Assembly (NCBI GenBank): GCA_041687695.1
Contig: JAWLBL010000034.1
Coordinates: 1-60,379, forward strand
Reading direction: 5' to 3'
DNA: 60,379 bases
Source of the DNA: Myxococcota bacterium
GTDB taxonomy: Bacteria; Myxococcota_A; UBA9042; PHBI01; JAWLBL01
The notes below the pieces were generated by a model. It was not told the origin of the DNA. It did not search any database and saw only the letters and a program-made list of their open reading frames with translations. Of this stretch, positions 13,277-17,691 are shown in pieces (position 1 is the first letter of the stretch; the number at the start of each line of letters is the position of its first letter). Made by a program: the position numbers and the translations under genes.

Positions 13277-14425
13277 TCACCACGAGCCGCTGGCCCCGCC
13301 CCCGCCGAAGCGCCCCCCGCCGCCCGAGTAGCCGCCGCTCGAGCGGGACGAGCTCGAGCCGCCGGAGCTGGACCCGCTCGAAGACCACGTGCTGCCTGAG
13401 CCGGACGACGAGCCGCCCTCGCCGAACATCGCGAGCGACAGCACCGCCCACACGGCGCCGAGTCCGTAGAGCTTGCTGCCTTCGGACCACAGGTCGGCGG
13501 CCTCCATGGGCACCTCGTCCCAGCTCCACACGGCGAAGCCCACGAACAGGGCCAGCACCGGGACGAAGGCGAGCACCGCGTAGAGCTTGCTGGCCCGCCA
13601 GCCCACCACGACCAGCACGCCCACGGTGGCGCTGACCGCCCACACCGCAGCGTAGAACAGTGGAAACCCGGCCTGCCCCATGAACACCAGCGCCATCAGC
13701 GCGGCCCCGCCGACCCACAGCCCCGCCGTCCAGGGCCGCAGCGCGACCCACCGCGCCGCCCGCTCCCGCTCGGCCGCCTTGCGCCGCTTGCCGTAGAGCC
13801 GCCCGACCGGCGGCACCCGGCGGTAGTACCAGCCCCCGACGCCGGCCGCCAGCAACGCCACCAGCACCAGATCCAGCCCGCCCGACCCCAGCGGCCGCGG
13901 CGGCGCGACGACCGCCTCGCCGGGCCGCAGGTGCGCGGTGCGCTCGACGACCCCGTCCACGATCCGCGTGACCGCCGCCCCGTAGTCGCTGGCCTTCAGC
14001 GCCGGCACCGCCAGGTTCAGCAGCCGCTTGGCCTGGTGGTCCGGCAGCGCCTCCTCGAGCCCCTGCCCCATCTCCAGCCGGCTGCGTCGGTCCTTGGTCG
14101 CCAGCACCAGCAGCACGCCCCGGTCCTCGCCCGCCCGGCCGCCGCCCCACCGCTCGGCCACCGCCATCGAGAGGTCCTCGATCGGCTGCCCCCCAGTCGT
14201 AGGCAGGACCAGCACCGCCATCTGCACGCCCGTCCGCTCCCAATGCTCCCGCAGCCGGCCCCGCAGCGTCGCCTCCACCTCGGGCTCCAGCACCCCGGCC
14301 AGGTCCGTCACCGGTCCCTCGATGCGCGGCACCTCGGCCCGGGCCGAACCGACGAGGCCGGCCATGACCATCAGCGCGGCCCCAAGCGCCGCACCGCACC
14401 CCATCCCCCCACCCGCTCGCGGCAT
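13277..14425 (-). CDS. TPM-domain membrane protein (YgcG-like)
   Basis: VTDLAGVL, GVQMAVLVLPT, RGVLLVLA..DR..RLEMG.GLE. Several TM helices and a Gly/Ser-rich tail GGGGRFGGGGASGSW. Start at 14425 follows GAGGAGG. Confidence 0.9.
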   Translation of the reverse strand: MPRAGGGMGCGAALGAALMVMAGLVGSARAEVPRIEGPVTDLAGVLEPEVEATLRGRLREHWERTGVQMAVLVLPTTGGQPIEDLSMAVAERWGGGRAGEDRGVLLVLATKDRRSRLEMGQGLEEALPDHQAKRLLNLAVPALKASDYGAAVTRIVDGVVERTAHLRPGEAVVAPPRPLGSGGLDLVLVALLAAGVGGWYYRRVPPVGRLYGKRRKAAERERAARWVALRPWTAGLWVGGAALMALVFMGQAGFPLFYAAVWAVSATVGVLVVVGWRASKLYAVLAFVPVLALFVGFAVWSWDEVPMEAADLWSEGSKLYGLGAVWAVLSLAMFGEGGSSSGSGSTWSSSGSSSGGSSSSRSSGGYSGGGGRFGGGGASGSW

Positions 14426-14576
14426 CCCGCCCTCCTCGCAAACGGTCACCACTGTCGCCTGGCCCGCCCCATCCGTCGAGCCGAGCCGCTCCGCCGAACC
14501 ACCGGTCTGGCGGCCGGGCTCCCACCGTGTCACTGTCCCGGACCCAGCCGAACGCGCTCACCGCGCGTGGGCGTGG

Positions 14577-14761
14577 AACGATGTGGTCGTTGCGCCAGGG
14601 CCGGCGGGTCCGTCAGAGTAACGATCATCGCGTGCGTCGCGAGGAGCGGCCGAAGGTCGGCAACGATCGTGTCGTTACGTACGGCCTGCATCGGATGAGC
14701 TCGAAACGAAGCGCTCGTTCGCTTGCGGGTCGCGGCAGGTGCGTGCAACGACGTGGTCGTT
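14577..14761. repeat. Phased array of five palindromes AACGA-N5-TCGTT with unique 27-28 bp spacers
   Basis: Motifs start at 14577 (AACGA TGTGG TCGTT), 14620 (AACGA TCATC GCGTG, imperfect), 14662 (AACGA TCGTG TCGTT), 14705 (AACGA AGCGC TCGTT) and 14747 (AACGA CGTGG TCGTT). Periods are 43, 42, 43 and 42 bp. Confidence 0.9.
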
Positions 14762-14771
14762 CCTCGCTGGG

Positions 14772-14802
14772 TTGACAGGGGGGCGCGGCACGGCGGTACC
14801 GT
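14772..14802 (+). promoter_or_regulatory. Putative promoter (-35 TTGACA) for the gene at 14826
   Basis: Perfect TTGACA at 14772-14777, 10 bp after the last palindrome. The candidate -10 TACCGT has a non-optimal 19-bp spacer. Confidence 0.4.
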
Positions 14803-14825
14803 GGCTGCACCGCCTGGAGGACCCG

Positions 14826-15626
14826 ATGCCCAACGCACCCGCGCTCGACGAGGATCGCATACCCGCCGCAGAGATCCTGGAAGCGCGGCGCGAGCGGCTG
14901 CTGGCGCTACCGGCCGAGTCGTTGCGGCGGCCCCGGATCTCGCCGCAGCGGGCGATGGAGCTGACGGCCATCCTGTCGAAGCACCTGGCGCCGCTGCTGG
15001 GCCGGCTCGAGGCCGAGCTGAGCGAGGCGCGGGCGGCCGAGCGGCGGGCGCAGGCCGAGGGGCTGGAGGACGCGGCCATGGCGTTCTACATGGCGGCCCT
15101 CCGCGCGCGGCGGCCCGAGACCTCGGAGAGCGAGGCGGAGCGCAAGCGGCTGGCCGCGCGGGTCCGCGACCGTGACGCGAGCCTGCTGAGGTGGGCGCAG
15201 GCCTTCTTCGCCGGGCAGCCCGCGCGCGAGGCCCTGCTGGCCCACATCCGGCCCGGCTCCGGGCACAGGGACGACGCCGAGGATGTGCTGCGGCTCGTGG
15301 CGCTCTTTCGCGAAGCCGGCCCGTGGCCACCCGGAATCGCCGAGCTGACGCCTGAGGCGCTGGCCGAAGCCGCCAGGGACGCCACCCGGCTCCTCGGCCT
15401 CGCCGTCGCCTCGCGCGAGTCCGCGCCCAAGGCCCTGGACCTGGCCCGCCGCGCCTACACCGCCTGGCTGTCCGACTACGAGGCGCTGCGAAAGCTGGCC
15501 GTGTACCTGAGCCCCGACGACGCCGACACCCGCAAGCGATTCCCCGGCGTCACCGGCCGCCGCGGCTCGGGGTCGCGCCGCACCCGCAAGCCTTCGAGGC
15601 AACCGGCCACGGAGGCGGCCGAGTAG
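14826..15626 (+). CDS. Uncharacterised all-alpha-helical protein (266 aa) with basic C-terminal tail
   Basis: GGAGGA RBS before ATG 14826 and high-GC coding bias. Internal IRPGSGHRDDAEDVLRLVALF motif and tail RRGSGSRRTRKPSR. No recognisable domain. Confidence 0.8.
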   Translation: MPNAPALDEDRIPAAEILEARRERLLALPAESLRRPRISPQRAMELTAILSKHLAPLLGRLEAELSEARAAERRAQAEGLEDAAMAFYMAALRARRPETSESEAERKRLAARVRDRDASLLRWAQAFFAGQPAREALLAHIRPGSGHRDDAEDVLRLVALFREAGPWPPGIAELTPEALAEAARDATRLLGLAVASRESAPKALDLARRAYTAWLSDYEALRKLAVYLSPDDADTRKRFPGVTGRRGSGSRRTRKPSRQPATEAAE

Positions 15627-15632
15627 CGCGGC

Positions 15633-15923
15633 TCAGCGCCCGGCGATCTCGAGGCGGTCGATGCGCAGGCGGCCGATGCGGACGTCGCCCAGGGCGGCGC
15701 GGCCGATGGCGAGGGCGCCGATGCTGACGGCGCCCAGGGCGAAGGCGCCGATGGCGGTGGCCCCGATGGCCAGGGCGCCGAGTGAGCGGGCGCCCTCGGG
15801 TGGCCGAGCGGCGCGGCGTGGATGGCCGGTCTCTCGGCGATGGGAACGCAAGGCTCGCGCGCCGGCCAGGCCGGCGAGGAGCGGCCCGGCCAGCCAGAGC
15901 GAGGACCCGGTCTTGGTGGTCAT
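15633..15923 (-). CDS. Small hypothetical membrane protein with (A/S)IGA-type pentapeptide repeats
   Basis: SLGALAIGATAIGAFALGAVSIGALAIGR repeat. GGAGG RBS. Lies downstream of the di-haem cytochrome gene. Confidence 0.65.
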   Translation of the reverse strand: MTTKTGSSLWLAGPLLAGLAGARALRSHRRETGHPRRAARPPEGARSLGALAIGATAIGAFALGAVSIGALAIGRAALGDVRIGRLRIDRLEIAGR

Positions 15924-16002: not shown

Positions 16003-17409
16003 TCAGAGCACCATCATGAAGGCGACGACGTCGGCCTTCTCCTGCTCGGTGAGCTTGGTGCCGAGGACCAGGTTGAAGAACTCGACCGTGTCGGCCAGGG
16101 TCAGTAGGCGCCCGTCGTGCAGGTAGGGCGGGCTCTCTTTGATGCCGCGCAGGGGGAAGGTCTTGATGGGGCCTTCGCGGTTGGCGATGCGGCCGTTGAC
16201 GTTCATCGGCTCGTGGAAGCGGGCGACGTTGAGGTCGTGCATGGTGTTGTCGGTGTAGTGGGGCGCCGGGTGGCACGTGCCGCACTGGGCCTTGCCGAAG
16301 AAGAGGGCCTCGCCGCGCAGCTCCTCGGCGGTGGCCAGGGCCGGGTCGAGGCGGCCGAAGACGTTCAGCTTGGGCGCGGGCGGGAAGTCGAGGATGGCCT
16401 GGAACTCGCTCATGTGGTGGACCTGCGAGCCGCGCTCGAGGGTGTTCGAGCCCTTCTTGGCGGCCTGGACGATGTCGCCGTCGAAGTAGGCGGCGCGCTG
16501 CTCGAACTCGGTGAAGTCCTCGACGGTCTTGAGGGCGCGCTGCGAGCCGAACAGGCGCTGGACGTTCACGCCGCGCAGGGTCGGGGTGTCGATGCGGCGG
16601 CGGTGGGTCTGGGGGCGGATGTCGCCGACCAGGTGGGTCGCGGCGTTGGTGTGGCCGTTGGCGTGGCAGTCGAAGCAGGTGACGCCGGCGTGGGCCTCGG
16701 CCGAGCGGCGGTCGAAGGTGGCGTTGAACTGCTGCTGCGGGAAGGGGGTGACCAGCAGGCGCAGGCCCTCGAGCTGCTTGGGGTTCAGGATGCCGAGGAA
16801 CAGCGCGTGGTGGTTCTCGAGGGTGACCAGCTGGCCCTGCGAGACGTCGCCGAGGTCGGGGCGGGTCGTCAGGAAGATGGCCGGCGGGAACTCGGGCAGG
16901 AAGTGGTCGGGGACGTCGAAGTCGACGTCGAAGCGGTTGAGGTCGCGCTTGCTCTGCCGCTGCACGAGGTCGATGTGGAACTGCGGGAAGACCATGCCGC
17001 CCTCGGCGTGCTTGGGGTGCGGCAGGGGCAGGAAGCCCTTGGGGAACAGGCCCCGGCGGCGGATCTCCGCCGGCGTCAGCTCGGCCAGCTGCTGCCAGGT
17101 CATCCCCTGGGGCAGCTTGACCCGGACGCCGGTCTGCACCGCCTTGCCGCGGGTCATCTTGTAGGGCGAGGGCCGGTTGGCCAGATCATAGCGCTCGGCG
17201 AGCAGCGCCTTGGCCTTCTGCATGACTGCGGGCTTCTCGGCCGACAGGCGCCGCATCACCTCGGGGAACGGCACGGTCTCGACCACCGGCGAGTAGCTCG
17301 ACGGCGGCTCGGACGCGATCGGTCGCCCGCCCTGGGCGAGCAGCGTCCCTCCGAACCCCAAGACGACCAGGCCCACCACGGCCGCGACGACGCGTACGCT
17401 TCGTTCCAT
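16003..17409 (-). CDS. Di-haem cytochrome c, CcP/MauG superfamily
   Basis: Signal peptide, two haem motifs CFDCH and CGTCH, DTPTLRG, and KTFPLRGI..SPPYLHDGRLLTL. Confidence 0.9.
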   Translation of the reverse strand: MERSVRVVAAVVGLVVLGFGGTLLAQGGRPIASEPPSSYSPVVETVPFPEVMRRLSAEKPAVMQKAKALLAERYDLANRPSPYKMTRGKAVQTGVRVKLPQGMTWQQLAELTPAEIRRRGLFPKGFLPLPHPKHAEGGMVFPQFHIDLVQRQSKRDLNRFDVDFDVPDHFLPEFPPAIFLTTRPDLGDVSQGQLVTLENHHALFLGILNPKQLEGLRLLVTPFPQQQFNATFDRRSAEAHAGVTCFDCHANGHTNAATHLVGDIRPQTHRRRIDTPTLRGVNVQRLFGSQRALKTVEDFTEFEQRAAYFDGDIVQAAKKGSNTLERGSQVHHMSEFQAILDFPPAPKLNVFGRLDPALATAEELRGEALFFGKAQCGTCHPAPHYTDNTMHDLNVARFHEPMNVNGRIANREGPIKTFPLRGIKESPPYLHDGRLLTLADTVEFFNLVLGTKLTEQEKADVVAFMMVL

Positions 17410-17691
17410 GACACCCCTCCTCAGGTTGATTGTGGCGCGGTGCAGGCATCGTAGGCCCCGGCCCAACGCCCCCGAAGGGAGAGGTCCCTAGCGGTGGACG
17501 CGGGCCTTCGCCGTGCGCCTTTTGGCACGCTGCGGCACACCGGCCGCCCGGGGGCACCGCCGAGCGCGGGCCTGGAGTCAGGAATTTCGGGCGCTTGCGC
17601 TTCCTTCGGTTGCGCCCGGGGAGGGGCCGTGTACCTTCCCCCCGTTCGCCCCTCGCGGCGACGCGACGTCCTCGACGCCCCCGAGCCGGCC

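What the first reader, a model, noticed from the sequence alone, without database searches (positions are those of the whole stretch)
14577..15626. Helically phased five-palindrome array (AACGA-N5-TCGTT, 42.5-bp period) coupled to an uncharacterised all-alpha protein
Seen in the sequence: five 15-bp palindromes (often extendable to GNAACGA-N5-TCGTTNC) start at 14577, 14620, 14662, 14705 and 14747. The spacing alternates 43/42/43/42, i.e. 85 bp per two units or about four helical turns each. Both the 5-nt centres and the 27-28 bp spacers are unique, so this is not a simple tandem duplication: only the motif and the spacing are conserved. The array ends 10 bp before a perfect TTGACA and the RBS of a 266-aa helical protein with a G-S-G-x-x-D-x-A-x-D motif and a basic tail. 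That protein has no HTH, Cas or ParB signature that I recognise. Inference: this is a dedicated array-plus-protein module. It could be (a) same-face binding sites for cooperative loading of a dimeric protein (autoregulation, a DNA sponge, or a centromere/iteron-like site), or (b) a transcribed repeat-spacer RNA with small hairpins, reminiscent of CRISPR or TIGR-type guide arrays but with a different architecture. It does not match the FNR, CRP or LexA boxes I know.
Basis: partly seen in the sequence, partly recalled or inferred. Interest (0 to 1): 0.88.

Follow-up and report, generated by a model that had tools for sequence, protein, structure and literature searches.

The report
Phased palindrome array with partner protein
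Six short DNA palindromes spaced four helical turns apart sit in front of an uncharacterised helical protein, and most relatives of that protein carry their own, differently spelled array of the same spacing, which points to an undescribed kind of matched protein and DNA-site pair.

Summary
The array is real. Four perfect AACGA-N5-TCGTT palindromes, one imperfect copy and an overlooked sixth in-phase site over the probable -10 box are spaced 43/42/43/42/42 bp; the chain is unique in the 7.97-Mb genome. The 266-aa all-alpha protein belongs to an unnamed family found here in Myxococcota. All 8 strong paralogues in this genome, and 43 of 64 family loci with full flanks (control periods 3-7 of 64), have a 41-44-bp array beside the gene, upstream or downstream, each with its own sequence. 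Mismatch patterns and a 10.5-bp sub-period point to double-stranded DNA, not a guide RNA. DUF6261 genes follow the same rule and predicted models share a layout, but sequence homology was not detected. The genome also holds 47 gene-less arrays, 22 resembling gene-linked ones. Best reading (0.58): a small mobile cassette whose protein coats its own same-face array and here represses its own promoter. Binding is inferred, not shown: protein-array co-variation is weak, the proteins are mostly acidic, and the basic tail is not conserved. Not found in print by my searches; earlier scan notes saw the DUF6261 rule.

The parts
14577..14591 (.). Site 1, perfect AACGA-N5-TCGTT
14620..14634 (.). Site 2, imperfect (right arm GCGTG); ACG-N7-CGT core kept
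14662..14676 (.). Site 3, perfect
14705..14719 (.). Site 4, perfect
14747..14761 (.). Site 5, perfect
14772..14777 (+). Consensus -35 hexamer TTGACA of the probable promoter of the gene (promoter inferred; strict scan negative)
14789..14803 (.).
14816..14821 (+). Ribosome-binding site GGAGGA
14826..15626 (+). 266-aa all-alpha protein (P0001) of an unnamed family; conserved IRxGxGxxDxAxD loop, RAY, Y218, FP; model pLDDT 93

Best explanation
A one-gene cassette: promoter, an all-alpha protein and a private array of palindromes repeated every four helical turns (two turns in some relatives). The protein most likely binds its own palindromes on double-stranded DNA as a symmetric oligomer and loads along one face of the helix. 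At this locus site 6 covers the -10 position and site 5 abuts the -35 box, so a filled array would shut off the gene (autorepression); since arrays lie downstream about as often as upstream, the array is mainly a loading platform or sink, not only an operator. Cassettes spread by duplication and horizontal transfer, often among toxin-antitoxin and restriction genes, and array sequence changes faster than protein, giving each paralogue its own site. Shown: array, phasing, gene-array linkage, dispersal of one cassette, orphan arrays. Inferred: binding, oligomer state, promoter, repression, purpose.
For: Motif and period kept while spacers are randomised; six sites in phase, the sixth over the -10 position. 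Linkage: 7 of 8 paralogues next to an automatically detected array vs 119 of 5552 other genes, p=2e-11 (the eighth is this locus); 43 of 64 loci vs 3-7 of 64 for five control period bands. Genome-wide period peak at 41-44 bp (13/53/24/10 arrays vs 1 at 40 and 0 at 46), a 10.5-bp sub-period in 59 arrays (0 of 300 permutations reach it) and 21-bp arrays beside two further genes of this type. Strand-neutral mismatches: G.T 43, A.C 43; 186 one-sided breaks vs 13 compensated changes in 32 arrays. Of 48 other arrays the closest to this one is L008, beside a protein of the same clade; Mantel rho 0.07, p=0.017. A 1.39-kb promoter-gene-array unit of a DUF6261-like gene is 90% identical at two unrelated sites. 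Defence-type neighbours at 19 of 62 family loci vs 3 of 40 random loci, p=0.006. Same geometry as sopC, 12 x 43 bp with a 16-bp protein-bound inverted repeat (PMC3177203 abstract).
Against: No binding data. No DNA-binding domain in Pfam or NCBIfam; members are net acidic (median -6, 15% net basic) and the basic tail is not conserved. Co-variation is weak: L069/L106 (62% identical proteins) have unrelated arrays. 21 of 64 loci had no array within 700 bp by my threshold, though two lie just outside it and some have degenerate ones. 47 of 69 arrays in this genome have no such gene beside them. The same motif pair occurs at 34 places in GTDB, none beside this family and one beside DUF6261, so the motif is not specific to the protein. 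13 of 22 double changes are compensatory (p=0.012 vs one third), a small hairpin-like signal. The neighbour control is from one genome and my defence labels are lenient; this locus itself has no defence neighbour. The sixth site was found after the fact and may partly reflect the -10 box.
Confidence: 0.58

Rival explanations
1. Self-propagating minisatellite: the protein helps make, expand or move its array (a REP/RAYT-like relation with a non-HUH protein); arrays are its products or substrates and orphan arrays are non-autonomous copies.
For: 22 of 47 orphan arrays resemble a gene-linked array at E<1e-6, 0 with reversed queries; whole cassettes are duplicated into unrelated sites; conserved D149, D153, R209, Y218 could be catalytic (inference); orphans favour convergent gaps, 20 of 42 vs 216 of 1422 long gaps, as REP elements do (recalled).
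Against: No transposase, recombinase or polymerase family match; no terminal inverted or direct repeat of 9 bp or more around this locus; here spacers have decayed while sites are kept, which fits binding better than copying. Orphans are equally explained by loss of the gene.
Confidence: 0.17
2. The array is read by geometry or by a host factor (nucleoid protein, condensin, cruciform binder); the gene needs such an element nearby but its product does not recognise the sequence.
For: Period conserved while sequence is not; acidic proteins; 21/42-bp palindromic minisatellites with this motif in many phyla without the gene; 41-, 23- and 22-nt tandem repeats reported in Porphyromonas gingivalis (PMC4596501 section 7).
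Against: One host factor would favour one motif per genome, yet this genome has over 20 different gene-linked motifs; related proteins have somewhat more similar arrays.
Confidence: 0.13
3. The array is transcribed and processed into about 42-nt RNAs that guide or neutralise the protein (CRISPR-, TIGR- or type III antitoxin-like).
For: Constant motif with unique spacers at this locus; the + strand folds better than shuffles (z=-3.67), as any palindrome-rich sequence would; 13 of 22 double changes compensated.
Against: No Rfam match; spacers are near-identical in most family arrays; no wobble-pair strand bias (43:43, per-array p=0.91); arrays lie before the -35 box or after the gene; periods are tied to helical multiples; spacers have no full-length match elsewhere in the genome.
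Confidence: 0.05
4. Operator of a known global regulator controlling the divergent TPM / MoxR-AAA operon; the helical gene is a bystander.
For: The array lies in the shared divergent intergenic region.
Against: Only 1 perfect site elsewhere in 7.97 Mb; arrays follow the protein family and a TPM neighbour appeared at no other of 62 loci; phase runs into this gene's promoter.
Confidence: 0.02

Closest known systems
F-plasmid sopC centromere with SopB (type Ia ParABS)
   Same: 43-bp period, 15-16-bp palindrome with about 5 important bases per arm, next to a gene (PMC3177203 abstract)
   Different: Protein has no ParB match; no ParA partner; chromosomal; over 20 such cassettes per genome with different motifs; arrays on either side of the gene
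DUF6261 (PF19775) genes with 41-44-bp arrays
   Same: About 260-aa all-alpha protein, private 41-44-bp palindromic array (17 of 30 Myxococcota DUF6261 loci); one Bacteroidales DUF6261 array carries this same motif (L184); predicted models split into the same two sub-bundles
   Different: 0 of 99 members match PF19775; profile-profile probability 0.2-0.6%; different conserved motifs
41-nt tandem repeats of MITEPgRS/464 and 23-nt BrickBuilt repeats of Porphyromonas gingivalis
   Same: Intergenic minisatellites of about four and two helical turns, dispersed in a genome (PMC4596501 section 7 part 1)
   Different: Those are one sequence family each, bounded by IS5-like terminal inverted repeats and without a gene; here motifs are private, gene-linked and no terminal repeats were found
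Single-protein plasmid systems KfrA (IncP) and pSK1 Par (recalled, not checked here)
   Same: Largely helical protein binding iterated sites at its own promoter
   Different: Those are plasmid-borne with an N-terminal HTH and short direct repeats; no plasmid match for P0001
REP/REPIN with RAYT transposases (recalled)
   Same: Gene-linked palindrome family plus dispersed orphan copies
   Different: No HUH/Y1 domain; fixed helical period; this genome has a separate 53-58-bp REP-like class

Membership tests
ParABS (sopABC type) | Array of about 43-bp repeats each with a 15-16-bp inverted repeat | tested here: met
ParABS (sopABC type) | ParB/SopB-family centromere-binding protein | tested here: not met
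   no ParB family among Pfam or NCBIfam matches of 99 members
ParABS (sopABC type) | Adjacent ParA-type NTPase | tested here: not met
   none among 137 neighbours of 62 loci; the AAA gene here is MoxR-type
DUF6261 (PF19775) | Match to the Pfam model | tested here: not met
   0 of 99 at E<=0.01
DUF6261 (PF19775) | Remote homology (profile or fold) | tested here: inconclusive
   hhalign not significant; nearest named Atlas cluster 0.82, DUF6261 on 45% of members; similar helix order and 8 shared top-50 VIA hits, all at noise-level Z; models could not be superposed directly
DUF6261 (PF19775) | Adjacent 41-44-bp palindromic array (rule from earlier scan notes, not a curated definition) | tested here: met
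CRISPR-Cas | Known repeat, unrelated acquired spacers, cas genes | tested here: not met
   no Rfam match; family arrays are tandem copies; no cas among neighbours
TIGR-Tas | Nop-domain effector (recalled) | tested here: not met
   no Nop match by sequence in 99 members
TIGR-Tas | Array processed into guide RNAs | not testable with these tools
   no RNA data obtained
Type III toxin-antitoxin | Promoter, repeat array, terminator, toxin in one transcript (recalled) | tested here: not met
   -35 lies between array and gene; no terminator found; 21 loci have the array only downstream
MITE / IS element | Terminal inverted repeats, target-site duplication or transposase | tested here: not met
   none of 9 bp or more between 14441-14580 and 15621-15720; none evident at the C1/C6 ends; true ends of this cassette unknown
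REP-RAYT | HUH (Y1) transposase | tested here: not met
Catalogued anti-phage systems (PADLOC 2.0) | Match to a system component | tested here: not met
   three single-member hits at E 3e-4 to 9e-4 among 99

The most novel reading that the evidence does not exclude
A widespread, undescribed superfamily (this family, DUF6261 and further orphan helical families) in which each protein is held on its own helically phased DNA array, the array acting as a DNA 'antitoxin' or sink: loss, cleavage or dilution of the array (phage attack, cassette loss) frees the protein, giving addiction or abortive defence; fast joint change of protein and array yields over 20 orthogonal pairs in one genome, and the proteins may also seed the orphan arrays.
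Probability: 0.2. Interest if true: 0.9.

Novelty: categorically new. Interest (0 to 1): 0.7.

Why it matters
If the pairing is protein-DNA recognition, this is a large natural library of orthogonal protein and site pairs with a fold lacking a known DNA-binding motif, and it would explain a conspicuous class of bacterial intergenic minisatellites (about 70 arrays in this genome, with 21- and 42-bp periods in many phyla) now treated as noise. It gives DUF6261-like proteins a testable function and extends the rule, noted earlier in this scan for Bacteroidota, to a second family without detectable sequence homology. The rating 'categorically new' means that no described system was met in the membership tests; the mechanism is inferred, and in broad terms it may prove to be an autoregulated DNA-binding protein with iterated sites.

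Tried and rejected
Fold searches gave nothing clear: Foldseek PDB and BFVD no match at E<=0.001; VIA best Z 8.2, helical-bundle noise, including DGR Avd at Z 7.1; PDB sequence search best E 0.075. Homodimer prediction: no answer (median 0.36, mark 0.42). Sequencing runs: none was listed, so no expression or strain data. Word-index protein searches found only the query and no longer fused form (weak evidence). No relative in IMG/VR, phage or plasmid collections, and no motif pair in IMG/VR. GTDB scan with P0030 found nothing. Rfam: none. A fixed 5-bp centre is not a class rule: centres of 0-9 bp are all enriched. The G022 trio (85-90% identical array plus gene) shares part of a neighbouring SNF2 gene, so I did not count it as clean evidence of a discrete cassette. 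The 45-bp repeat just downstream of the gene is coding (15633-15923) and not an array. No transitive sequence link between this family and DUF6261 through the other array-linked families; one singleton scores E about 0.01 to both. Literature: eight searches found no description of the pairing; a recalled report of 42-bp repeats near P. gingivalis hagB could not be confirmed; the library lacks most subscription journals and bioRxiv supplements were not seen.

Full report
1. Observation. The five sites are at the stated coordinates with spacings 43/42/43/42. Four are perfect AACGA-N5-TCGTT; the one at 14620 has a broken right arm. The perfect motif occurs 5 times in the 7.97-Mb, 73% G+C genome, 4 of them here; 0.32 one-mismatch matches are expected per window. 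Flanks of the five units are not significantly more alike than shuffled (0.354 vs 0.320, p=0.11), so motif and period are kept while the rest has drifted. A sixth, symmetric variant (CACGG-N5-CCGTG) lies 42 bp further, at 14789-14803. The core ACG-N7-CGT occurs six times in 14300-15100, all in phase, and no other phased chain of three or more exists in the genome. TTGACA (14772-14777) lies between sites 5 and 6, and site 6 covers the -10 position for a 17-19-bp spacer; the -10 match is weak and the strict scan called no promoter, so the promoter is an inference.

2. The protein. P0001 (266 aa) has 193 relatives at E<=0.001 among 50%-identity representatives; the nearest Atlas clusters are unnamed and mostly Myxococcota. 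From 99 near-full-length hits (alignment A1) no Pfam, NCBIfam or PADLOC family matches more than one member. The model is confident and all-alpha (pLDDT 93). Conserved positions include G146, D149, D153, R209, A210, Y218, P240 and several moderately conserved arginines; members are net acidic (median -6) and the last 30 residues are net basic in 34%, so the basic tail is not a family trait. The family is patchy: 11 of 41 related genomes and 11 of 151 genomes of the phylum, 1-17 matches each.

3. The rule. This genome has 8 strong paralogues. Each has an intergenic 41-44-bp array beside it, each with a different sequence. Automatic detection finds 7 of 8 (this locus is too diverged) against 119 of 5552 other called genes, p=2e-11. 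Across 80 family loci (8 from this genome; two duplicates dropped), 64 had at least 600 bp on both sides; 43 of these have a 40-45-bp array within 700 bp, against 3-7 of 64 for five control period bands. Over all 80: 27 upstream only, 21 downstream only, 3 both (one of these, this locus, is a false downstream call on a coding repeat), 29 none. Of the 21 full-flank misses, two have arrays about 1.1 kb upstream and some show short degenerate ones. Neighbouring genes are not conserved (137 proteins, 62 loci), so the array belongs to this gene and not to the divergent TPM / MoxR-AAA genes.

4. A larger class. Tandem repeats in the genome peak sharply at 41-44 bp (confirmed by lag scan). After I excluded 14 coding, duplicate or off-period calls by eye, 69 arrays remain: 22 beside one of 24 helical orphan genes of 230-295 aa that I picked by inspection (so this count is not an independent test) and 47 without; 22 of the 47 resemble a gene-linked array at E<1e-6, against 0 with reversed queries. 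This locus has no orphan copy. The 24 genes fall into this family plus a remote branch (hhalign 86%), a DUF6261 group (one over the Pfam cut-off; others linked at 89-97%) and singletons. Many end in a Pro/Ala/Glu tail such as EPVA (12 of 17 proteins with such a tail are array-adjacent). Two have 21-bp arrays, and 59 arrays show a 10.5-bp sub-period beyond all 300 permutations. Recurring palindromes are about ten times more common than in column-permuted arrays, with no fixed centre length. One DUF6261-like promoter-gene-array unit of 1.39 kb is 90% identical at two unrelated sites. These genes have lower GC3 than the genome (p=5e-6), and by my hand labelling 19 of 62 family loci have a toxin-antitoxin, restriction or similar neighbour against 3 of 40 random loci of this genome (p=0.006; within this genome 4 of 8, p=0.01). 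The labels are lenient (SNF2, HerA, AAA_21/23 counted), the control is one genome, and this locus has no such neighbour.

5. DNA or RNA. In 32 family arrays, departures from palindrome pairing are 186 one-sided against 13 compensated and 9 uncompensated double changes; G.T and A.C mismatches are 43 and 43 with no per-array bias (p=0.91). This is expected for sites read on double-stranded DNA and not for a transcript hairpin, although the 13 of 22 compensated doubles exceed one third (p=0.012). Most arrays are tandem copies with near-identical spacers, Rfam has no match, and the four spacers here match elsewhere in the genome over at most 20 bases.

6. Do protein and array match? Among 49 loci, array similarity rises weakly with protein identity (rho 0.07, Mantel p=0.017 for pairs under 60% identity); the closest of 48 arrays to this one is L008, whose protein is in the same 16-member clade and whose units read AAC(G/C)AT-N3-RTYGTB. 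Against: two paralogues at 62% identity have unrelated arrays. A GTDB scan for two perfect sites 41-44 bp apart gave 34 loci in many phyla, 26 at exactly 42 bp; 16 have a best period of 21-22 bp, several are coding repeats, none lies beside this family, and one (L184, Bacteroidales) lies just upstream of a DUF6261 gene (E 8e-34). The motif is thus common in 21/42-bp minisatellites and not exclusive to this protein.

7. Relation to DUF6261. The Atlas lead and the DUF6261 gene with a 44-bp array in this genome came before I saw earlier scan notes on a DUF6261-array rule in Bacteroidota. I tested that rule in Myxococcota: 17 of 30 DUF6261 loci have a 42-44-bp array by the same thresholds. P0001's family is not DUF6261 by Pfam (0 of 99) or by profile comparison. 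The two predicted models have a similar helix order, both split into an N-plus-C-terminal bundle and an inserted middle four-helix bundle, and share 8 of their top 50 VIA entries, but at Z-scores that any helical bundle can reach. Common ancestry is plausible and unproven.

8. Mechanism. Most likely (0.58) the protein binds its palindromes as a symmetric oligomer, loads on one helical face, represses its own promoter here, and uses the array as a platform or sink; the cassette travels with the mobile gene pool. Rivals: the protein makes or moves the arrays (0.17); a host factor or DNA geometry reads them (0.13); an RNA array (0.05); an operator for the neighbours (0.02). No binding, expression or phenotype was shown.

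9. Known systems and print. The geometry is that of F-plasmid sopC (PMC3177203, abstract and outline read), but ParB and ParA are missing. P. gingivalis has 41- and 23-nt repeats inside IS5-type MITEs (PMC4596501, passages and section 7 part 1 read), without a gene. A 2026 survey of periodic intergenic arrays reports periods of 60-79, 18, 5, 10, 8 and 7 nt in the passages I saw, with no mention of Myxococc- or palindrom- (10.64898/2026.10.21.760802, abstract and passages; supplements not seen). PMC5771137 passages added nothing. KfrA, pSK1 Par, RAYT, TIGR and type III TA features are recalled. Eight searches found no description of the pairing.

10. Verdict. Real, non-random, and one example of an undescribed gene-array pairing shared by at least two large helical protein families; function inferred. 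Interest 0.7.

Noticed in passing
G000 genome-wide (e.g. C12:105025, C22:44343, C32:3882, C45:285): A separate class of 44 intergenic repeats of 53-58-bp period, mostly sharing one REP-like palindrome (CCGGCTGGAAGCCGG), with a second family around ACGTTWCCGCGGWAACGT.
   Followed up: no
G000 C1:369643, C6:67712, C15:109192, C18:4462, C20:152796, C38:52646, C43:17740, C45:16625, C52:22422, C9:184494, C23:22734: Array-linked helical proteins of several families end in a Pro/Ala/Glu-rich tail finishing EPVA, EPVDA or similar; possibly a shared degradation or interaction tag.
   Followed up: partly
L091/L092 (G000 C1:370.6 kb, C6:67.3 kb) and orphan C2:212444: The array has a large perfect inverted repeat at its centre (GAGGGGGTCNGACCCCCTC core), so units flip orientation; the same centre occurs in a gene-less array.
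   Followed up: partly
L164, L166, L173, L174, L177, L178, L179: 21-bp minisatellites built of AACG half-sites in alternating orientation every 10-11 bp in Bacteroidota, Planctomycetes, Treponema and Mesorhizobium, many at contig ends, with no partner gene seen.
   Followed up: partly
L022 and L027 (G022): About 820 bp separate array and gene in two of three close paralogues but not in the third (L012); the shared stretch includes the 5' part of an SNF2 gene.
   Followed up: no
window 15633-15923 (-): 96-aa protein with repeated AIGALAIG-like pentapeptides, convergent on the gene; no Pfam match.
   Followed up: no
window 16003-17466 (-): Secreted-looking protein with two CxxCH haem motifs, resembling di-haem cytochrome c peroxidases (label recalled; Pfam only weak).
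   Followed up: no
L114 upstream (G052) and L130 upstream (G046): A 16-copy 61-bp array and a 12-copy 30-bp array upstream of DUF6261 genes; the first has a CRISPR-like period.
   Followed up: no
G000 C27:1039-4925: A 2.3-kb or longer 82-bp (2 x 41) array at a contig start with no gene beside it.
   Followed up: no
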